Of a stretch of DNA of 64,000 bases, positions 6,483-63,942 are shown piece after piece. The DNA is from Eledone cirrhosa (lineage: Eukaryota). The stretch's first letter is position 1, and each line of letters begins with the position of its first letter. Under the pieces are notes generated by a model, which saw only the letters and a program-made list of their open reading frames with translations, made no database searches and was not told where the DNA came from. The stretch is from contig OZ024742.1 of assembly GCA_964016885.1 (NCBI GenBank), positions 191,952,001 to 192,016,000 of the forward strand. Reading direction: 5' to 3'. The translations under genes and the position numbers were made by a program.

Positions 6483-8620
6483 ACATACACACACACACAC
6501 ACTACGTCTGTCTACTGCCTGCAGATGGTGGATAGTTACAACCATAAACGGGAGCAAGAGCAAGGTACATATTTGTGAGCAGCTAAAAAATAATTGTTTC
6601 TACTTTAGGCACAATGCCAGCATTTACCCAGTGCATTACTGGTACTTTATTTTATCGACCCCGTAAGGATGAAAGGCAAAGTCAACCTCGACGGGATTTG
6701 AACTCAGATCGTAAAATGCTAAAAAATAATAAAATCGTTTACGAACTTGTGACGTTGTTATATTTACAACTTTTACATTTTAACGATATGAATGTAATAA
6801 TTTTGTTTTTCTGTCAAGGTAAGGAGTGGAAGACCGTGTGCTGCTTGATCCTTATTAGGTTCTCCAAAACTGTAGAGACCGACGAAGGTTTCCTCAAACC
6901 GTAGAGATTGCCCAAATCCATACAACAGTGGACATATTTAAAGGAATTGAAATGCCACAATGGGAATTTGAACTCAATAAAGTGCAGGATCAACTACCAA
7001 ATTTCATTTCACGCGAACGAATGAAAGGTAAAACTGACCTCGATGAGATTAGAGTACATATTTGTACTTCATTTATCGATAACGAAATGGGAACATCGAC
7101 AGGAATAGATTGTCAAGTCTAGAAATCCGGAACGGATTGAGCAAAGCATTCTGATCAATGATTAACGACTAGTCAATTTGCCGCCTTACAGTGGAATATA
7201 ATGAAATACGATGTAATATGATATGAAATAGCTACAGATATTACCAGACACTTTCTTTTTATGATAAACTGTCGAACGTTATAGCGTAACATTTTATATT
7301 ACATCTGGAAATAAATGTTTTCAACAGAAATTCTATAATACTTTATTTCATATAAACACGCACAAAGGCATATACACTTCGCACTCCTCAGACACACACA
7401 CGCACAGATATATGTTTCCCCTAAACCCCGCTACCTCTTTACTATATGAATTCAAAAGTAGTGTGTGTGGGGGGGGGGGGGGGCGTATAGCACAAAGACA
7501 ATGGAAAAATAAAGGAAAGACTGAATATATATATAATTGGATATATGAGAGAGATGAACACAGATATAAGTATACATGTGTTTCAATTAAAAATGACCAA
7601 GTTAGCTAGGTTAAAAAATATTAATTTAAAACAATATGGTTTGCCTGACTCGATTTAACGTAATAAATCAATAAAAAATAACAAACCTATATCGGGCAAA
7701 TAGCCGGATACCCGGACAGATGTAAATCTGTTTCACAATGATTATTAAGTGAAAGCTAGAATTCCTGTGCTCTTCTGCGGGTATCCATGAACATTCGTAC
7801 CTTTCACTTCAAATGATCAGGTATAAACGCACATGATACAGCGCCTAACGCGTCTCATACTCATGCCGCTAAAAATAGCTATTTAATTATAAAAGACTAT
7901 TTTGAGTTTCTGGTTCATCTGAATCATTGAGCGCTTGCCACACATCTCGGAAGTTGTTTTTCACTAATTCCAAAGCCGAAATACGATTCTCGCTAATTTA
8001 TATTTGTATTTATCTCCAGAGTCTAGCTATTGACCAGTTAATTTTCTTGATTTTTTTAGTTGATTCTATTGACTGATGAATAGCTTTTGTTAACTTATAA
8101 CCATTCTGTTGAGAGCTTAATTCGTTTTGTGATATTTTGCATTTTTGCAATAATATACACATAATGAATTTCATCCGCCAAAAATAAGGGTTGCCTCCCT
8201 TGTCGAGCCCCACGTGGGTATCGGTAACGGTCATTCTTTGCCTGGCACTTGAACTAAAATCTGTTGAGAAAGTGACTTACTTGTTCAATCATCTTACCAG
8301 AAGCCTAACATTACTTGTCTAAGCGGACAGTACTTGATTTAGGAGTCGCAGAAACCCAAATGCTGGAGTTTACTAACTATCCAGGGGTCCGGGTCAATTT
8401 TTTCAATCACATTTTTTTTATTTCTTTGACCCGAATTACTTGGTCGTTTCTATGGTTGTGCGGATGACGGTTTAACCATCGTCTCAGTGTGTTTGGCTTT
8501 TATCGTATGTTGTAGCTCTGGTTCGTCAGAATTATTGAGCGCTTGCCACACATCTCGGAAGTTGTTTTTCGCTAATTCCAAAGCCGAAATACGATTCTCG
8601 CGAATTTATATATATATATA

Positions 8621-8834
8621 TAGGAACAAGTATGACCTCAACGGCAGAGCTCAAGCCGTTTCGACGGCTATTTCTGGACTAAAATATTTTTTTTAGTCCG
8701 GAAATAGCCGTCGAAACGGCTTGAGCTCTGCTGTCGGGGTCATACTTGTTCCTATTACCCACTCTACTACCCTAAGTATTGAGTACTTTGATGCGTTATG
8801 GTCCATCTGGTTCCTTACAACAATTCCTTCGTTA
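8621..8834 (+). mobile_element. Family C fold-back mini-element (PLE pLTR-derived), type copy
   Basis: Inverted arm plus long arm ending CCTTCGTTA, in (TA)n. Other copies: about 12350-12490, 24745-24928, 48263-48415, 49739-49890, 49922-50110, 50979-51012, 51625-52070, 55444-55523, 59886-59940, 63276-63395, 63428-63612, 63638-63841. Confidence 0.9.
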
Positions 8835-8958
8835 TATATATATATATATATCCACAAACCCTCCATCTCAATTCTACTTTTGAAAAGCACAAGAACTGCG
8901 AAACCGGTAAAAGAACCAAATAACTCCAGTTGCATTTTCGATTTCATCATTTGATCCT

Positions 8959-12282: not shown

Positions 12283-12499
12283 ATTTGTTTCTACTTTAGG
12301 CACAAGGCCAGCAATTACCCAGTTCACTACATATATATATATATATTATTGAATACTGGTGGCTTAGTTCGGATCTAGGTGTTGAAACGGCCAGATCTCA
12401 ACCGTCGGGGGTTCTGACTCTTGTCATATTACCTACTCTACTAACCTAAGTATTGAGAACCCCGGTTCATTACATAACACCATCTTTATTATATATATA

Positions 12500-13704: not shown

Positions 13705-14261
13705 CGTTTGTTTGTAAGTGTGCGTCCGTTTGTCTATGTATTCAATCCTATACATTTAAAATGTTCGACATATCCGAACGTTGTTTTCAAACCGTTTCGG
13801 GGAAGATCAAATTTGATCGAGGAAATTTATGATAAATTGTTAGAATCCTATCTTTGTTTCTTTCTTTTGCAATAAAGAATATTTAGGATTTTTTTTCTTT
13901 TGTTTCCTTTTCTATGAAACTGTATTCATCATTATAATAATGTGACTGAAGTGCCAGGAAATATTGAGCGGCTACTTAGAAGTCTTACTCATTCTCACCT
14001 CATTACATTTCCACGCCAAATTAGTTGAGTTCTGATCAATTTCTTAAAAGTATTCCAGTCTTGATCTTGTCCTTTTGGTTTTAGTTTCTTTTGTTTTTGT
14101 TAGGGCATAAATTATCAAGATCTGTATTATGTAATGTGCCCTTATATTCGTTTTAAAACAGAATAGGGTAATTTTGATTAGATATGTTTTCTATCTCTAG
14201 CATTCGGGCAACGGCGTAGATGATTCCTGTTATCTGGTTTCATACAAAAGTTAATGTTTAA

Positions 14262-14506
14262 AATTTTGTGAACCACGATCTACCACCAAATATATTCCAG
14301 CTATGATCAAAATTTTGTGAACCACGACCTACCACCAAATATATTCCAGCTATGATCATCCCACCTTTTTTCTTTCTCTTATTAATTTTGTGAACCACGA
14401 TCTACCACCAAATATATTCCAGCTATGATCAACATTTTGTGAACCACGACCTACCACCAAATATATTCCAGCTATGATCATCCCACCTTTTTTCTTTCTC
14501 TTATTA
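14262..14506 (+). repeat. Higher-order tandem duplication
   Basis: About 50-bp unit AATTTTGTGAACCACGA(T/C)CTACCACCAAATATATTCCAGCTATGATCA four times, arranged as (unit-unit-spacer) x2. Confidence 0.95.
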
Positions 14507-15095
14507 AGCATAGTGTATCTGAAACATAGTGTATCTTCTTTACCATTTTAAGATAGTAAATTATGATTTATCGCTGATTTAGCCGCACATTCTAAAATAT
14601 TGAGCGTTCCTGTAGAGGACTACTGGTTGACACGTGTTTGTTTCCACATAAAAGTTATATAATGCCATATCAGCTTTGATTAAGCAGAACTACGATCAAA
14701 TGTATTCTAGTCACTGCCATACCGATTAAAATATGCAATGTATATAGCATTGGATTTGGAGGAAATTTCGCTGCTATTTCTTACAAGATATGCGGTCACA
14801 TAAATGTCTATAATTTAGTACGCAACAGTTAGAAGCTGTTATCGTTTAACCGATCACCAGGCATGATCACGTAGGCCCAGGCTCAAAAACATTACAGTCG
14901 TAACTATCATAATTTTGTATTTTTAGGACATAGTATATCTTGGAATACATGAAATTTTCTTTTATCATTTTTAAAAACAGGAAGATCAATATAAGGGAAT
15001 AATTGACTGCTGTTTCTTGTAGATAGTACGGTTACGCACAGAGTAGTTATTCGAAGCTTCCACGCAAAAATGTGTTTTCTAAATAATAACCCCAT

Positions 15096-23934: not shown

Positions 23935-23941
<7 letters not shown>

Positions 23942-24423
23942 ATACTTTGGGAGGGTCATGTTGTCAATAAGAAACACACGCACCAGTTGCTTTCATTCCA
24001 ATTTATTATAAATTAAATTTATAAATTTGAGAATTTATAAATTTCCGGTTGGATGGTTCCATAACCGGACGGTTATTCATATATTGTCAAAGTTGTTTCG
24101 TCACACATTCTGTGACCTCTTCAGTGACTTGGGATTATTTTCTTTGTTTTGTGCCTCTCCTTTGTCCCCAAGTCACTGAAGAGGTCACAGAATGTGTGAC
24201 GAAAGAACTTTGACAATAGATGAACAACCGTCCGGTTAGGGAACCATCCCACCGGAAATTTATAAATTCTTAAATTTATAAATGTTATTTATAATAAATT
24301 GGAGTGAAAGCAACTGGTGCGTGTGTTTGTTATTGGCAACATGACACTCCCAAAGCATAACAATATAGGTTTCAACACACGTTTTCAGATACAGAATCTT
24401 GCTAAACAAATTCAGAAACGAAA
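23935..24423 (+). mobile_element. Family D fold-back element (about 200-bp inverted repeat + tail)
   Basis: 23935-24140 is the reverse complement of about 24165-24365; a shorter copy with the same ends lies at 61775-61965; TA-flanked. Confidence 0.9.
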
Positions 24424-24428
24424 TATAT

Positions 24429-24674: not shown

Positions 24675-24926
24675 GAAAATTTTAGTAAGTTAATTTTTAA
24701 TTTTTAAAATGTTCTTATTTAACGTCTTTCATATATATATATATACATAGAAGTTGTGGTAAGGAACCAGATGGACCATAACGCACCAGAGTACCCAATA
24801 CTTAGGGTAGTAGAGTGAGTAATAGGAAAATGTATGACCCTGACGGCAGAGCTCAAGCCGTTTCGACGGGTATTTCTGGAATAGCCAGAAATGGCTTGAG
24901 CTCCGCCGCCGGGAACATACATTTTC

Positions 24927-24998
<72 letters not shown>

Positions 24999-35682: not shown

Positions 35683-38600
35683 TCTTTGAGTCTCAGTCAT
35701 TGCTGTTAGTTAACTGGAAAGTTTGTTGAAATGAATATTAAGCCACTACCTGCAGTCTCAGATATTCAGGACGTATCGGAGGGTTCTTGCTGTTCCCAGC
35801 AAGCATGCCTTTTGAAGCGTTCCAAAAAGCGTGAAATGGCCAATTTTCTTTAACCATCCCTGGAAACTTTTTGAGATAGTCCCTAGTGCGCCTATGACAA
35901 TCGGGATCACTTTGACTTCATGGCAGTTCCAAATCCTTTTTACCTCCCACTTTAAGTCCTGGTATCGGTTAATTTTCTCCCTCTCCTTCTCTTGCACTCT
36001 CGTGTCGAATGGGCAGGCCACGTCCACAATCAGGCACGATCTTTTTACTTTGTCCAAAACCACCAGGTCAGGTCTATTTTGTTCCAGTTTATTGTCCGTC
36101 TGTATCCTAAAATCCCACAGCACCTTCACCTGATCGTTTTCTATCACCGCCTCTGGCGTATGCTCATACCACTTCTTAGAATGTGGTAAATTGTTTACTT
36201 TGCACAGGTGCCAGTAGATCACCCTGCCCATCACATCATGTCTCCAGCCCTTATAGTGAGTCTGGGCTAGGTGTTTACACTCGGATACAATGTGAGCCAC
36301 AGTCTCCTCTCTCTCTCTCCACAGATCCTGCACAGTGGGCTAGCCTCCTCCTTGTAAATGTGGTGTTTCAACCACTTCGTTTTGAGGGACTGCTCCTGCG
36401 CAGCCATTAACATTCCTTCTGTAGCCTTTTTAAGGTCTCCTCTTTTCAACCAGTTCCATGTCTGTGGATCTCTAAATTCAGTTCTCTCAAAGAAGGTACT
36501 ATGAAGGGATTATTCCTGAAGGCTGCTCTTTCTCCTTGATGTTATTTCCTCCTTGAACATCCCCTGGCCTATTGTCCCCTCCTTCAGTACAGTTCTGAGC
36601 ATTGGCTCCGTACTATCAGTCACGTATTTGTGTAGGTTGTTTTTCTCCATCTGAACACAGTCCTCTATGCTGATAAGACCACTTCCACCCTCAGATCTCC
36701 TTAAGTAGAGTCTATCGATATCACTCCTCTTGTGTAACATGTTGTAGATAGTCAATAGCTTCCTAGTCTTCCTATCCATTTTTTTTGTTCAGCAACATTC
36801 CATCTCAGAATTCGCGCACTGTACCTAATAATAGACACAGCTCGGGAATTTACTGCACTTATGGCATTCCTACTGTTCAGATGTGACTTTAATACGCTCC
36901 TTAGTCTCCGAAGGTATTCAGTTCTTATCAATTCCTTCATTTTTTTGTTCTTGATGTCATCAGCCTCCAGAACGCCCAAATACTTGTATCCCTCCTCAGA
37001 GTCAATTTCCTTTATCATCTCACCTGTTGTTATCTGGATTCCGTTACTTCTGCTCAACTTACTCCTCCTCATCACAATGACTCCACACTTACTAATACCA
37101 AATTGCATACATATATCATTGCTGAAAATACGGACAGTGTCAACAAGCACATCCAACTCCTTCTCACTCTTCCCGAAGAGCTTAAGATCGTCCATGAAGA
37201 GGAGGTGATTGCTGGTAAGCCCTCCCTTTCCCAACCTGTATCCTGCCCTCACTTTTCGCAGTACACTGGTCAGGGGCATCAGGGCAACGACAAACAACAG
37301 AGGGGACAGACAATCTCCCTGGAAGATACCTCTCTTGATCTTCACGCTTCCCAAGGATTCTCCAGTTGATGTTAACTCTGTTTCCCAGGACTTCATACTT
37401 TTGCCCAACAACTGTCTGATGTTATCTGCCACCTTGAAGATCTCCAGGCTTTTGGTGATCCAAGAATGTGGCACCTTTTTGTAGTCTATCCATCCCATGG
37501 CAAGACCTGTGTGTCTCCTCTTGCAATTCCTCATTACCATCTTATCAATAAGTAACTGGTCCTTTGTACCACGTGACTTCTTTCGGCATTCTTTCTGTTC
37601 GTCCGGTAACAAGTTGTTTGTGTGGAGGTGATGGTAGATTTCCTCAGAAATAATGATTGTCAACAGTTTCCACATTACGGACAGATATGTGATAGGTCTA
37701 TAGTTGGTAACATCATTACCCTTGATTCGGTCTTTCATTATCAGAACTGTGGTACCTTTTGTCAACCACTCTGGTACCTCACCTGACATCAAGCAGTCAT
37801 TGAACATGGTTGTCAGTTTCGGGTGGAGGGATGTTATGTTTTTAATCCAATACCCCTGCACACCATCTGGGCCAGGTGATTTCCAGTTGGTTAGATTTGT
37901 GGCCTGCCCCTTAAGAGTTTCAACTGTGATACTCAAATCAGTTTGTTGGTGTGCCTGTTCACTAATCTCCTTCTGTACTGTCTCAATCCACACTGCCTGG
38001 TCATTATGTTTAACATCCTGCTCCCATATTCCTCTCCAGAATGTTTTAGTTTGTTCCGCCTCAGAGATCATGTCGTTGCCTCTTTCTTTCCCTTCAAGCT
38101 GTCCAAACAGCATCTTCTGGTTGTTGTCGAACATGCGGTTCTGTCTATATTTACTGACTCTGTTCTCGTATCGCCTGATTTTTGCACTCTTTGCTACAAT
38201 GCGTTGATTCAGTTCCTCTATGATAATATTTAGCTTTTTCCTCCTAGTTTTGTACTTTATTTTCAGTCTATTTTTAGTATCTATGTTTTTTAGTGTCCCA
38301 TTCAGTAGGGACTCAAGCTTTCCAATGTCATTTCTCATTTCCCTGATTTGACCACTCAGTCGTTTCTTCCACTGTTGTTTCCTCTCGCTTTTATACCAAG
38401 TAGTTTCCTCACCGTATTTGCTGTTGCTTTGAGGATATTGTTGCACTGGTGAAGGCTCCTCGCCTCAAGGTATGGGATGACTTTGTTTACCTTAGCTGTT
38501 GTTACTTTTAACTTTTTCCTGTCTACAAATCTTAGGTTCATAAGTCTCCCACTATCATTGTTCAATTCATCTACCACTAAGTTTAGGATGTCAACCAAAT

Positions 38601-41412: not shown

Positions 41413-41479
<67 letters not shown>

Positions 41480-41481
<2 letters not shown>

Positions 41482-41752
41482 TGAGATTCTACAGGACTAG
41501 AACTGTTTCATTCTTCAGAAATCATCAGGAATCTGGGTATCAAAAAATAAATATGGTAATTATAGGTCTCTTCACCTGAAGCGACCTATAAATACCATAT
41601 TTATTTTTTGATACCCAGATTCCTGATGATTTCTAAAGAATGAAACAGTTCTCGTCCTGTAGAATCTCATCTATATCAAAACGTTTATACTCTGTAATGT
41701 ATTGAGTACCTTACTTACTGTGGTTACCTCCAATTCAACCCGGAATAACGTA
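41480..41752 (+). mobile_element. Family F fold-back element
   Basis: Near-perfect hairpin 41480-41671 plus a tail ending GGAATAACG|TA; second copy 62525-62732 has the same ends and a shorter hairpin. Confidence 0.9.
41617..41667 (+). ncRNA. Type I hammerhead ribozyme motif (family F)
   Basis: AGATTC-CTGATGA-tTTCTAAAGAAt-GAAA-CAG(loop)CTG-TA-GAATCT; antisense twin at 41484-41534; same pair at 62530-62646. Confidence 0.8.
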
Positions 41753-48190: not shown

Positions 48191-48265
<75 letters not shown>

Positions 48266-48986
48266 CGAAGGAAATGTGGTAAGGAACCAGATGGACCATA
48301 ACGCACCAAAGTACTCAATACTTAGGGTAGTCGAGTGGGTAATAGGAACGAGTAGGATCCCAACGGCTGAGCTCAAAACGGCTTGAGCTCAGCCGTCGGG
48401 GTCCTACTCGTTCCTATATATATATATATATATATGTATCTATCTGCTCTTCCTTATTATTATTAATGCGTCCATGATCAGGTGCTGTTGATGTTGTTAT
48501 CGTCTACTTAGCGATCTTTATATTTTAAAAGTTTACTTAGAGAGAGAAAGACAGTGTCTATGACTCAAATGTTTACGAGGGTAGTGAGGAAATGGATGAA
48601 AGGTATCTTCAAGCCGAAGACCTGGTTCCAATCTTTGCTTAATGGTTCCCATGAACGAGGTAGGAGTTAAAAAGCACTTGATGAAGAAACATACGCCGCG
48701 GGGAAATTTGAACATAGAACACGGAAAGCCAGAAAATTACCACAAATTCTCATACCCGACATTTTAATGACTCCATAAGTCCACCGATCTTTACTGATTT
48801 TAACGACCGCGAAAGTAATCACCAAGGTATCGCTCCAATATTTGAAATCAGAGCAGCGCCGAGAAGTAGAGTAAATACCGACGCTCTAATGACTGAAAAT
48901 CTATAATCGGTGCTGTTGATATTATCTGCTTCGTTTTCTTCTTCTCCCTGATGTTGTTGTTGTTGTTGTTGTTGTTTTTGTTCTTC

Positions 48987-49743: not shown

Positions 49744-50116
49744 AGATTCAGGACCCCGACGGCTTAGTTCTGGCCCTCGACAGCTAGGTCGGGGTCCTTA
49801 ATCTTTTCATATTACCCACTGTACTACCCTGAGTATCGAGTGCTCTGGTGCGTTATAGTCCATCTGGTATCTTACCACACCCTCTCTGTTAAATATATAT
49901 ATATTTATATATATATATATATAGGAAAAGGTACGACCCCGACGGCAGAGGTCAAGCCGATTCGAGGCTATTTCTGCAAATAGCCGTCGAAACGGCTTGA
50001 GCTCTGCCGTCGGGGTAATATCTTTTCCTATTTCCCACTCTACTACCGTAAGTATTGAGTACTCTGGTGCGTTATGGTCCATCTGGTTCCTTACCACAAT
50101 TCCTTCGTTATATCTA

Positions 50117-50915: not shown

Positions 50916-50981
<66 letters not shown>

Positions 50982-51009
50982 AACCAGGTTCCTTACCACA
51001 TTTCCTTCG

Positions 51010-51079
<70 letters not shown>

Positions 51080-51603: not shown

Positions 51604-51678
51604 TTTATATATATATATATATATATGAAAATGTTCAAGACCCCGACGGCAGAGCTCAAGCCGTTTTGACGGCTATTT

Positions 51679-51795
51679 CTCTCCATCTCAATCTTTTCGC
51701 GAACAGGTCGATCTTTGCGTGAGCATCCGTAGGTAAAGTTTTCTAGGTGGAACTGGGATGTTCTTGGTGGAGAAGTTGATAGTGTGTTTTCGCAT
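51679..51795 (-). pseudogene. N-terminus of a Penelope ORF attached to a family-C repeat
   Basis: ATG at 51795: MRKHTINFSTKNIPVPPRKLYLRMLTQ, then (frameshift) IDLFAKRLRWR. This resembles the YSxKNIPxP...KRMRWK start of PLE ORFs. Confidence 0.75.
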
Positions 51796-53080
51796 GATAG
51801 GTATTATGAAGAAACTGGAGCTGGGTGGAAAAGTCGGGATATGGCGTGGTAGGGTCGGAAAGTGTTCTACTACGGCGGTAGGAGCTAGATAACGAAGGAT
51901 GTGTGGTAAGGAACTAGATGGACCATAACGCTCCAGCGTACACAATACTTAGAGTCGTCGAAACGGCTTGAGCTCTGCCCTCGGGGTCTTGAACATTTCC
52001 TATTATCCACTCTACTACCCTAAGTATTGAATACTCTGATGCGTTATGGTCCACCTGGTTCCTTACCACACACACATATATATATATACATATATATATA
52101 TAAAGGATAACAAAAAATCGTTATTGGTAATCCAATTATTAATATTATTATTGATGATGTAATTTGAATTTGTTACACATATATGTTTTGATCAGTTTCC
52201 GATGATCTAGTAGAGTTAACATCGTATTTAAAATTGAGTGGCACTGCTTTTAGTGTTCACCAATTTTTAGACAACTCTATCAGTGAAACAATTGTTAGAC
52301 TGCAAATAAATCCCCTTTTTTGTACTGTTGACCATGTTATTCTCCACTTTCTCAACTATATATATGTATATGGGGTGTGAGAAAGCGAGTGAAAGAGAAC
52401 GAACGATATTATGTCTGATGGGATATTGAGAATATCGTTTCATCTATCTGTTTGTGCATGTGTGTATGTAAGTGTGCTTGAGCAATATATATATTCCTAA
52501 GCTGCCATCAATTTCCGCTAGGTTTCCGTTTCGCTTCTCAAACTTATGGGCATATTCCTCTTAAATGAGAATCCTTTCACTTGCTTATTTCAATACCAAC
52601 TAGCGACATATATAGCAATTAAGTGTAACCACAAATTCTAATACATGCTTTCACTAGTTGACAAAGACAAATTCTAAACCCCTCACTCCCATGATCCAAC
52701 GGAACATTCAGGCTGTAAAAGCTGCAGGAATAGAGAATCCTGCACCAGAACTAGGCTGGTTCTTTATTTATCAACCATGAAAGGAAGGGAGCCAAAGAGG
52801 ACCTCGGTGGGATTTGAACGCACAATCCAGAAACATGTAAAAAATATTCAACATTCTCATATATCTGTATAATAATGTATAATCTAAACCCAAGGCCGGC
52901 AATCTGCAGGAGCTAAAGGTTAACTTTACTTCAGTACCCTTCGATGTGGTAACAGCAGATGGACAATTTGCTCAGCACAGGTTAGAATCCAAGATCTCAT
53001 GATTGTGAATCAAATTTCCTAACTATCCAGTCGTATATATCTGTAAATCCATTAAATGTCGTGGGGCGAAAAATAATGGA

Positions 53081-54660: not shown

Positions 54661-56718
<2,058 letters not shown>

Positions 56719-62483: not shown

Positions 62484-62528
<45 letters not shown>

Positions 62529-62729
62529 TGAGATTCTACAGGACTAGAACTGTTTCATTCTTTAGAAATCATCAGGAATCTGGGTATCAATACCCAGATT
62601 TCTGATGATTTCTAAAGAATGAAACAGTTCTAGTCCTGTAGAATCTCATCTATATTAAAACTTTTATACTCTGCAATGTATTATGTACATTACTTATTGT
62701 GGTTACCTCCGGTTCAACCCGGAATAACG

Positions 62730-62806
<77 letters not shown>

Positions 62807-63269: not shown

Positions 63270-63837
63270 ATATATAGGAAAAGAGTCAGGACCCCGACGG
63301 CTGAGCTCCGCCGTCGGGGTCCTGGCTCTTTTCCTATTACCCACTCTACTTACCTAACTATTGAGTACTCTGGTGCGTTATGGTTGACCTACCTGTTCTG
63401 TTCTGTTATATATATATATATATATATAAGGAAGTGTGGTAAGGAAGCAGATGGGCTATAACGCACGAGAGTACTCAATGCTTAGGATAGTAGAGTGGGT
63501 AATAGGAAAATGTTTAACCCCGACGACAGAGCTCAAACCGTTTCGACGGTTATTTCTGGACATAACCGTCGAAATGGCTTGAGCTCTGCCGTCGGGGTTA
63601 AACATTTACCTATATATATATATATATATATATATATAGCGAGGGAAAAGTGGTAAGGAACCAGGTGGACCATAACGCACCAAAGTACTCAATACTTAGG
63701 GTAGTAGAGTGGGTAATAGGAGTAAGTAAGACCTCGACGGCTGAGCTCAAGCCGTTTCGACGGCTAACTCTGTACTGAATTAGTACAGAATTAGCCATCG
63801 AAACGGCTTGAGCTCAGCCGTCGGGGTCTTACTTACT

Positions 63838-63942
<105 letters not shown>

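What the first reader, a model, noticed from the sequence alone, without database searches (positions are those of the whole stretch)
8621..8834. Stereotyped hairpin-plus-tail architecture with fixed ends and a variable turn-around near the ribozyme
In family C the inverted arm consistently ends at TTCCTA|TA (or a close variant) and the long arm usually at CTTCGTTA|TA. The fold-back point wanders within about 30 nt of the GAAA core (loops at about 8680, 24880, 48377, 49975, 63306, 63555, 63780), removing the CTGATGA half. Families D (23935, 61775) and F (41480, 62525) show the same fixed-end, variable-loop pattern. Inference: prematurely ended cDNA self-primes at ribozyme stem hairpins, copies back, and joins the target through TA microhomology.
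Basis: partly seen in the sequence, partly recalled or inferred. Interest (0 to 1): 0.75.

Follow-up and report, generated by a model that had tools for sequence, protein, structure and literature searches.

The report
Hairpin stubs of Penelope-like retrotransposon
These lopsided DNA hairpins in TA repeats are very short insertions of an abundant Penelope-like jumping gene whose two fixed ends are the element's two usual 3' ends, so they were most likely made by both cut DNA strands copying the RNA rather than by one copy folding back on itself; the structure itself is a known kind.

Summary
Window 8621-8834 is a 64-nt inverted arm, a 6-nt junction, a 64-nt direct arm and an 80-nt one-sided tail, set in (TA)n. 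The same fixed ends with different junctions recur in the window, in families D and F, and about 20,000 times in the genome.

It is the 3' end of an abundant Penelope-like element (PLE): a 3,531-bp tandem unit with a 717-aa RT/GIY-YIG-like ORF.

- **The two "fixed ends" are ordinary 3' termini.** Long copies end at either one (16 versus 12), which matches the published PLE "tail" and its two RT start sites.
- **Hairpins almost always pair one end of each kind.** I found 46 mixed pairs and no same-end pairs.
- **Turn-arounds cluster.** 67 of 87 lie 125-145 nt from the tail end, in the 3' strand of a hammerhead-like helix II.
- **Snap-back self-priming does not fit generally.** In 24 of 87 hairpins the tail-less arm reaches further upstream than the tailed arm, and in 12 the arms share no sequence.

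Two-strand priming followed by cDNA-cDNA joining fits best; this step is inferred.

The architecture and the self-priming idea are already in print. Earlier notes of this scan on other DNA of this genome reached a similar reading.

The parts
8607..8620 (.). (TA)n target, left flank
   Evidence: sequence
8621..8684 (-). Inverted, tail-less arm. Its outer end is TTCCTA (site 1) and it runs to about -142 from the tail end.
   Evidence: L001: -142..-79
8685..8690 (.). Junction (T-rich, 6 nt) between the two arms
8691..8754 (+). Direct arm. It carries the 3' half of the hammerhead-like motif: helix II 3' strand, GAAA at 8713-8716, helix III with the palindromic GAGCTC loop, GTC at 8733-8735, then GGGGTC of helix I.
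   Evidence: no Rfam hit
8755..8834 (+). One-sided tail between the two alternative 3' termini; ends CTTCGTTA (site 2)
8835..8851 (.). (TA)n target, right flank
24754..24930 (-). Family C copy: tailed arm 24754-24883, short arm 24888-24930 with an internal deletion
48263..48417 (-). Family C copy: tailed arm to -113, tail-less arm to -123
49921..50110 (+). Family C copy: tail-less arm 49921-49976, tailed arm 49978-50110
50980..51012 (+). Mini copy: last ~30 nt of the tail preceded by a 7-8-nt inverted arm that ends in TTCCT
51627..52070 (.). Complex copy. The inverted cDNA starts at site 1, jumps from about -134 to unit position 208, and runs through unit position 1 into the preceding tail, which implies a multimer template. 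It is joined to a direct arm covering -128..-12.
55443..55524 (+). Tail-only copy (-81..0)
63277..63384 (+). Family C copy that turns in the GAGCTC palindrome (-118)
63428..63613 (-). Family C copy, arms to -138 and -133
63637..63842 (-). Family C copy, arms to -143 and -141
23937..24425 (+). Family D hairpin with 201-nt arms plus a tail ending GAAACGAA
61775..61965 (+). Family D hairpin with a 37-nt inverted arm, a longer direct arm, and the same ends
41474..41750 (+). Family F hairpin with 101-nt arms, each carrying CTGATGA...GAAAC, plus a tail ending GGAATAACG
62526..62735 (+). Family F hairpin with ~79-nt arms and the same ends

Best explanation
The 214-bp hairpin-plus-tail is a heavily 5'-truncated, head-to-head double insertion of an abundant endonuclease-type Penelope-like element in a (TA)n microsatellite. 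It was most likely made when the two 3' ends of the cut target each primed reverse transcription, one at each of the element's two start sites about 79 nt apart. The two short cDNAs are then inferred to have been joined by template switching or microhomology.

**Shown**
- The element is a 3,531-bp tandem unit with an RT/GIY-YIG-like ORF.
- Both hairpin ends are the two alternative 3' termini of ordinary copies.
- Hairpins are nearly always made of one arm of each kind.
- Arm 5' ends pile up at -125 to -145, with a cliff at -145.
- Many junctions are asymmetric or show no overlap between the arms.
- The two arms of one hairpin are more alike than arms of different hairpins.

**Inferred**
- Both strands prime on the same RNA, or on the same source.
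- The tail-less cDNA leads and the tailed cDNA trails.
- The stop reflects the hammerhead-like helix II, whose 3' strand is copied up to the apical loop.
- The two cDNA 3' ends then pair and copy each other.
For: **Identity of the element**
- The protein search found 29,450 candidates and arrays of period 3,531 bp. Array L072 is 99.95% self-identical at that period.
- The ORF is 717 aa with YRDDG and VIY..YIG motifs. It has 2,049 homologues at E<=1e-10, some with precomputed GIY-YIG hits. Atlas neighbours carry GIY-YIG or RVT_1.

**The ends are start sites**
- 16 of 28 long copies end TTCCTA|TATA and 12 end at the tail.
- Genome counts are 19,967 and 21,592.

**Mixed-end rule**
- Among the first 100 tail ends and 93 site-1 ends on contig C1 there are 46 mixed head-to-head pairs, 0 tail-tail and 0 site1-site1.
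- In the sequence-checked samples, 42 of 43 partners of tailed arms are tail-less. Of the partners of tail-less arms, 45 are tailed and 5 are tail-less arms, from 3 insertions (Fisher p about 1e-19).

**Against copy-back**
- 24 of 87 hairpins have the tail-less arm longer by more than 10 nt, and 12 of 87 have no overlap between arms.
- Five copies share the junction -58/-139, with TTAG/CTAA pairing between the two cDNA ends.

**Same source for both arms**
- Within-hairpin divergence has a median of 3.3%, against 7.0% between hairpins (70 hairpins, p=1.4e-11).

**Literature**
- The PAc protein cleaves and extends both strands and starts at two internal sites that bound the tail (PMC11167929, whole main text read).
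- The inverted 5'-truncated copy, the one-sided tail and the (TA)n bias are described for PLEs (PMC8557442 passages; PMC3846280 passages).
Against: - 55 of 87 junctions are symmetric within 10 nt. Long hairpins also turn at matching arbitrary positions: -231/-231, -450/-460, and unit positions 374/390 and 831/831. Snap-back predicts this directly. My model needs both cDNAs to end at the same point of one RNA.
- Nothing here shows directly that both target strands primed. No RNA or in vitro data exist for this element.
- If start sites were chosen freely, same-end hairpins should be common, so the mixed-end rule needs an extra assumption: each site on one RNA is used only once.
- A few copies (L184, L280/281, L288, L295, L300) have 15-25-nt inverted arms without TA flanks and look like true small snap-backs.
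- The cause of the stop at -139 is open. It is not the 5' end of the full-length template (0 of 19 upstream partial units start there). The RNA fold is no more stable than shuffled sequence (z=0.01).
Confidence: 0.6

Rival explanations
1. Snap-back self-priming. One cDNA primed at the tail end stops early, folds back, copies itself and stops at TTCCTA, where it joins the (TA)n target.
For: 55 of 87 junctions are symmetric within 10 nt, mostly with gaps of -6 to +9 nt. Long hairpins turn at matching positions. Thirteen of 70 hairpins have arms without any difference. A few short inverted arms without TA flanks exist. The published inference of self-priming rests on palindromes at inverted junctions (PMC3846280).
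Against: The inverted arm cannot be longer than its template, yet it is longer by more than 10 nt in 24 of 87 hairpins and shares no sequence with the tailed arm in 12 of 87. Its fixed end equals the alternative 3' terminus of ordinary copies. Copy-back should often run through the tail and give two-tailed hairpins, but only 1 of 43 was seen (L205) and 0 among 100 tail ends. The turn-around lies before the apex of helix II, so no stem is yet present in the cDNA.
Confidence: 0.12
2. A mixture of both routes. Two-strand priming gives the asymmetric copies, and snap-back followed by a block at the protein-bound start-site region gives the symmetric ones.
For: Both symmetric (55) and asymmetric (32) classes exist. 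Small snap-back-like arms exist.
Against: Both classes obey the same mixed-end rule and share the same stop positions, which favours one mechanism.
Confidence: 0.2
3. The hairpins are MITE-like non-autonomous units that arose once, or a few times, and then spread as hairpins.
For: Some junction types recur: 9 combinations were seen 2-3 times. L280 and L281 are identical including their flanks.
Against: 77 of 87 hairpins have a distinct combination. Recurrent combinations sit at the commonest stop positions. L280/L281 lie 26 kb apart and share flanks, so they are a segmental duplicate. Arm ends match the parent element's termini across several subfamilies.
Confidence: 0.04
4. The palindromes formed after insertion, by replication or repair errors at (TA)n cruciforms.
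For: (TA)n tracts are fragile and flank every copy.
Against: Breakage in the flanks would not place the arm ends at two fixed element positions, and would not pair one of each kind.
Confidence: 0.04

Closest known systems
Insertions of endonuclease-bearing Penelope-like elements with pLTR, an adjacent inverted 5'-truncated copy and a one-sided 30-40-bp tail (Arkhipova et al. 2013, PMC3846280; Craig et al. 2021, PMC8557442; passages read)
   Same: Tandem units and pLTR, heavy 5' truncation, a head-to-head inverted copy, a tail at one end only, a (TA)n target, and a hammerhead-like motif just upstream of the 3' end.
   Different: The tail here is about 79-80 nt. Most copies are only about 200 bp in total. 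The rule of one end of each kind, the stop hotspot and the asymmetric junctions are quantified here; I did not see them quantified in the passages I read.
PAc (Poseidon of Anolis carolinensis) in vitro reaction (Frangieh et al. 2024, PMC11167929; main text read)
   Same: Two adjacent internal RT start sites that bound the tail. Both target strands are cleaved and extended. The start sites lie tens of nt downstream of the hammerhead cut site. The target is AT-rich.
   Different: A different clade and host, and nothing was tested biochemically here. [quoted passage not shown]
Twin priming of LINE-1 5' inversions (Ostertag and Kazazian 2001; recalled, not read here)
   Same: The second target strand primes on the RNA, and the two cDNAs are joined by microhomology.
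   Different: As recalled, L1 inversions are not palindromes and the internal priming site varies. Here the second priming site is fixed and both arms cover the same stretch.
Minimal and variant hammerheads of PLEs, including the U3-A8 core variant (Cervera and de la Pena 2014, PMC4209133; passages read)
   Same: A type-I layout in the pLTR, a long helix II with a bulged base, a short helix I, a palindromic helix III loop (GAGCTC), and a U3-A8-type core (UUGAGAA) in the tandem unit.
   Different: Helix II here is about 60 nt long. No Rfam hammerhead model matches. Many subfamilies read CUGAGAA, a C3/A8 mismatch. Cleavage is untested.

Membership tests
Endonuclease-bearing Penelope-like elements (PLE) | Single ORF with a PLE-type reverse transcriptase | tested here: inconclusive
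   717-aa ORF with YRDDG. Pfam gave no hit at E<=0.01 and RVT_1 only at E=0.086. 2,049 homologues at E<=1e-10. Some Atlas neighbour clusters carry RVT_1 or HTH_animal. No tree against reference PLE RTs was made.
Endonuclease-bearing Penelope-like elements (PLE) | C-terminal GIY-YIG endonuclease | tested here: inconclusive
   The motifs NVIYQC...KAYIGLT, preceded by CNCPDRSICPLDNRC, were read by eye. The local Pfam scan of the C-terminal 186 aa gave no hit at E<=10. Homologue P0001 and Atlas clusters carry PF01541.
Endonuclease-bearing Penelope-like elements (PLE) | Tandem or partial-tandem units forming pLTRs | tested here: met
   Arrays of period 3,531 bp. Upstream partial units were present in all 18 full-length copies that matched the unit, out of 19 examined; one locus had no match.
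Endonuclease-bearing Penelope-like elements (PLE) | Inverted 5'-truncated copy adjacent to the 5' end | tested here: met
   44 of 65 tail-anchored copies have an inverted partner.
Endonuclease-bearing Penelope-like elements (PLE) | Optional tail at one end only | tested here: met
   Two alternative 3' termini about 79 nt apart. 46 mixed pairs against 0 same-end pairs.
Endonuclease-bearing Penelope-like elements (PLE) | Microsatellite (TA)n insertion bias (Neptune, Naiad and Hydra types) | tested here: met
   19,967 and 21,592 ends abut TATATA; flanks shown.
Hammerhead ribozyme (PLE variant) | Conserved core (CUGANGA or the U3-A8 variant, plus GAAA), three helices, GUH cleavage site | tested here: inconclusive
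   A hand parse fits: UUGAGAA, GAAA, GUC, helices I-III. The MFE fold of the unit gives the three-way junction. 88% of cells pair in 13 copies against 26-54% when partners are slid, but there are 0 compensatory changes. RNAalifold prefers another fold. Rfam gave no hammerhead hit at gathering score, at E<=1 or at E<=10.
Hydra clade of PLEs | Clade membership by RT/EN phylogeny; EN without the CCHH motif | not tested
No reference sequences were at hand. C, C, H and H residues are present around the GIY-YIG motifs, so I leave the clade open.

The most novel reading that the evidence does not exclude
The near-absolute pairing of one tail-less and one tailed arm means the PLE particle works as a two-headed machine. 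The two RT start sites 79 nt apart on one RNA are each used once, by the two strands of one cut. The trailing cDNA displaces the leading one and then copies it. The roughly 20,000 hairpin stubs are its abortive products, released at the apex of hammerhead helix II. This would explain the long-puzzling inverted pLTR and one-sided tail of all EN+ PLEs.
Probability: 0.4. Interest if true: 0.6.

Novelty: new member of a known kind. Interest (0 to 1): 0.42.

Why it matters
How Penelope-like elements build their inverted repeats and one-sided tail is still called undefined in the literature (PMC8557442, PMC11167929).

This genome holds about 20,000 very short insertions whose ends and junctions can be read at single-base resolution. 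They argue against general self-priming. They favour priming from both target strands at two different start sites. That gives concrete predictions for the existing in vitro system. The element itself is an ordinary, if very abundant, PLE.

Tried and rejected
- **Rfam.** No hammerhead hit for the window at gathering score, for four long copies at E<=1, for the tandem unit's pLTR at E<=10 or for a family F hairpin at E<=10. Only chance matches of the hairpin to miRNA models appeared.
- **Covariation.** I tested the hand-drawn hammerhead on 13 copies and found none.
[quoted passage not shown] RNA evidence could not be had: the run search gave only assembled contigs, and the single RNA run laid one 200-nt contig elsewhere on the stretch. 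A shorter RNA species ending at -139 is therefore not excluded.
- **Non-autonomous ~1-kb or ~2.2-kb element?** Rejected once the upstream sequence proved to be the endonuclease and RT coding region.
- **Random 664-kb census**. It gave too few copies (about 30), so I replaced it with position-ordered pattern samples.
- **Pfam** did not name the ORF.

Full report
**1. What is at the site.**
Window 8621-8834 reads, left to right:
- (TA)n;
- an inverted arm (8621-8684);
- a 6-nt T-rich junction;
- a direct arm (8691-8754) ending TTCCTA;
- an 80-nt extension ending CTTCGTTA (8755-8834);
- (TA)n.

The arms are 65 nt long by the repeat finder and 94% complementary. The repeat is not chance. A 25-mer of the arm occurs 10 times in the window against 0 in 100 shuffles. 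The tail-end 16-mer occurs 5 times against 0.10 expected.

Each lies in (TA)n, has the same two outer ends, and has its own junction.

**2. What it belongs to.**
The window is G000:C3:191952001-192016000 of a 3.0-Gb eukaryote genome. Walking upstream from long copies led into coding sequence with YRDDG and VIY..YIG motifs.

A protein search with that stretch found 29,450 candidates, of which 150 were scored. Many share identical scores, have open frames of 784 aa, and sit in tandem arrays spaced 3,531 bp apart. One array (L072) is 99.95% self-identical at that period.

The unit holds:
- a 717-aa ORF from ATG;
- a 3' untranslated region of about 1.1 kb;
- a hammerhead-like motif;
- TTCCTA ("site 1");
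- the tail, ending CTTCGTTA ("site 2").

After site 2 the next unit begins. I count positions from site 2 as 0. Site 1 is then at about -79/-80, the predicted GUC cut at -98, GAAA at about -118 to -121, and the 5' core box at about -180.

The local Pfam copy does not name the ORF. However, 2,049 proteins match at E<=1e-10, typically about 40% identical and about 705 aa long. Some carry precomputed GIY-YIG hits, and Atlas neighbours carry GIY-YIG, RVT_1 and HTH_animal.

Together with the tandem units, the inverted copies, the tail and the (TA)n targets, this is an endonuclease-type Penelope-like element. I leave the clade open.

**3. The two fixed ends are the element's two ordinary 3' termini.**
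I anchored a sample 290-450 nt upstream of the tail end, so it is blind to the 3' end. Of those 30 long copies, 16 end TTCCTA|TATA without a tail, 12 end at the tail, and 2 are disrupted. Some of these copies are arms of long hairpins.

Genome-wide, site 1 joined to TATATA occurs 19,967 times and site 2 joined to TATATA 21,592 times. The reversed control patterns occur 0 times.

This is the PLE "tail". Frangieh et al. 2024 (PMC11167929, main text read) showed for PAc that reverse transcription starts at two adjacent internal sites, that the tail is the stretch between them, and that both target strands are cleaved and extended.

**4. Hairpins pair one end of each kind.**
I took position-ordered samples on contig C1, which are unbiased by similarity: 65 distinct tail-anchored copies and 71 site-1-anchored arms.

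| Sample | Partner at site 1 | Partner at site 2 | Other | No inverted partner |
|---|---|---|---|---|
| Tail-anchored (65 copies) | 42 (one, L260, assigned by eye) | 1 (L205) | 1 | 21 |
| Site-1-anchored (71 arms) | 5 arms from 3 insertions | 41, plus 4 that start 12-28 nt inside the tail | 8 | 13 |

The 8 "other" cases in the second sample are mostly short inverted arms whose outer ends lie at -88 to -123. Fisher's test on the table as typed gives p about 1e-19.

From coordinates alone, the first 100 tail ends and 93 site-1 ends on C1 give 46 mixed head-to-head pairs within 700 nt. Of these, 45 lie 86-197 nt apart. There are 0 tail-tail and 0 site1-site1 pairs. These are exact-match lower bounds.

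**5. Where the arms end.**
Among the 87 mixed hairpins:
- 67 tail-less arms end between -145 and -125; the commonest positions are -139 (16), -135 (8), -138 (6) and -133 (6);
- none ends between -150 and -145, and only 5 end beyond -150;
- 53 tailed arms end in the same 20-nt stretch;
- the remaining tailed arms form smaller groups near -97 to -108 (the predicted cut site), near -72 to -84 (site 1) and at -57 to -59.

Copies without an inverted arm reach beyond -150 in 14 of 34 cases, and 9 of 34 stop in the hotspot.

In the RNA fold of the unit, -135 to -143 is the 3' strand of the distal part of helix II, and -144 to -147 is its apical loop.

DNA contigs of two coded runs show the same step. 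Summed depth rises about 15-40-fold within -163 to -123 and falls more than 100-fold after the tail end. These runs may be the assembly's own sample.

It is clustered rather than uniform, and not identical between copies: 77 of 87 hairpins have a distinct combination.

**6. Snap-back or two primed cDNAs?**
Symmetric junctions, with arm ends within 10 nt of each other, make up 55 of 87. Long hairpins also turn at matching arbitrary positions. Both models can give this.

But in 24 of 87 hairpins the tail-less arm reaches more than 10 nt further upstream than the tailed arm. The reverse holds in only 8. In 12 of 87 the tailed arm stops inside or just at the tail, so the two arms share no sequence at all. 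L206, L212, L225, L169 and L177 are examples. A copy cannot be longer than its template, so these need an independent cDNA started at site 1.

Five copies share the junction -58/-139. There the two cDNA 3' ends can pair by TTAG/CTAA.

Copy-back through the tail should also give two-tailed hairpins, which are nearly absent.

The arms of one hairpin are more alike than arms of different hairpins: median divergence 3.3% against 7.0%, over 70 hairpins, p=1.4e-11. This fits one RNA, or one source, for both arms.

The window's own complex copy (51627-52070) shows a cDNA that started at site 1, jumped with AGAA microhomology, and ran through a unit boundary. Its template was therefore a multimer.

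**7. Proposed mechanism (inferred).**
- The endonuclease cuts both strands of (TA)n.
- Each 3' end primes at one of the two start sites of one RNA.
- The site-1 cDNA leads and the site-2 cDNA trails.
- Most syntheses stop in helix II.
- The two cDNA ends then pair or template-switch and copy each other.

This accounts for several features at once: the mixed ends, the bias toward longer tail-less arms, the group of tailed arms ending near site 1, the templated filler at many junctions, and the symmetric junctions if both cDNAs end at the same point of the RNA.

What makes the two strands choose different sites is not shown. The nature of the -139 stop is also not shown. It is not the 5' end of the full-length template (0 of 19).

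**8. The ribozyme.**
By hand the motif reads as follows:
- helix I: ACCCC/GGGGU;
- core: UUGAGAA, a U3-A8 type that is published for PLEs (PMC4209133);
- a long bulged helix II;
- GAAA;
- helix III with a palindromic GAGCUC loop;
- GUC.

The structure is compatible with 13 copies: 88% of cells pair, against 26-54% when partners are slid. It has no compensatory change, and no Rfam model matches. Many subfamilies read CUGAGAA. I call it hammerhead-like; its activity is untested.

**9. Families D and F.**
Families D and F in the window repeat the plan with other sequences. In family F the arms include the whole CTGATGA...GAAAC motif, so loss of the 5' half is not a general feature.

**10. Known or new.**
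The following are already published:
- the inverted 5'-truncated copy, the one-sided tail and the (TA)n bias (PMC3846280, PMC8557442);
- self-priming as the inferred cause of palindromic junctions (PMC3846280 Discussion);
- two start sites and two-strand extension in vitro (PMC11167929).

My three literature searches turned up no paper that quantifies the mixed-end rule or the asymmetric junctions. That is not proof that none exists, and I did not open any supplementary file.

Earlier notes of this scan on other parts of this genome reached a similar reading. I tested it here independently, before reading them.

Noticed in passing
window 36752-38464 (-): A 570-aa open frame with an RVT_1 match (E=8.7e-17), belonging to another retroelement unrelated to family C.
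   Followed up: no
window 41474-41750 and 62526-62735: Family F hairpins carry CTGATGA...GAAAC on both arms, yet no Rfam hammerhead model matches at E<=10. Only chance matches of the hairpin to miRNA models appear.
   Followed up: partly
L074, L075, L073 (G000:C3:119684500-119690400, C1:363047700-363052900, C2:52526500-52531700): Palindromes with arms of 2.2-3 kb that cover most of the element. The arms are 99.8% identical to the unit in L074 and L075, and 96-97% in L073. Junctions lie at unit positions 374/390, 718/803 and 831/831.
   Followed up: partly
L280 and L281 (G000:C1:153358064-153360090 and 153384689-153386715): Two copies 26 kb apart with an identical junction and identical flanks; most likely a segmental duplication rather than two insertions.
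   Followed up: no
L014, L016, L183 flanks: A tRNA-like repeat (Rfam tRNA 29.4 bits in L016) recurs beside several loci; possibly a tRNA-derived SINE.
   Followed up: no
window 12364-12460 and 49789-49879: Diverged (75-82%) relatives of the family C 3' end with a different arm end. They suggest older or sister subfamilies.
   Followed up: no
window 14260-14507: Tandem repeat of 49/122-bp units at 98-99% identity.
   Followed up: no
L184, L288, L295, L300 (site-1-anchored sample): Direct arms preceded by only 15-25 nt of inverted sequence, with the outer end at -114 to -123 and without TA flanks. These look like genuine small snap-backs.
   Followed up: partly
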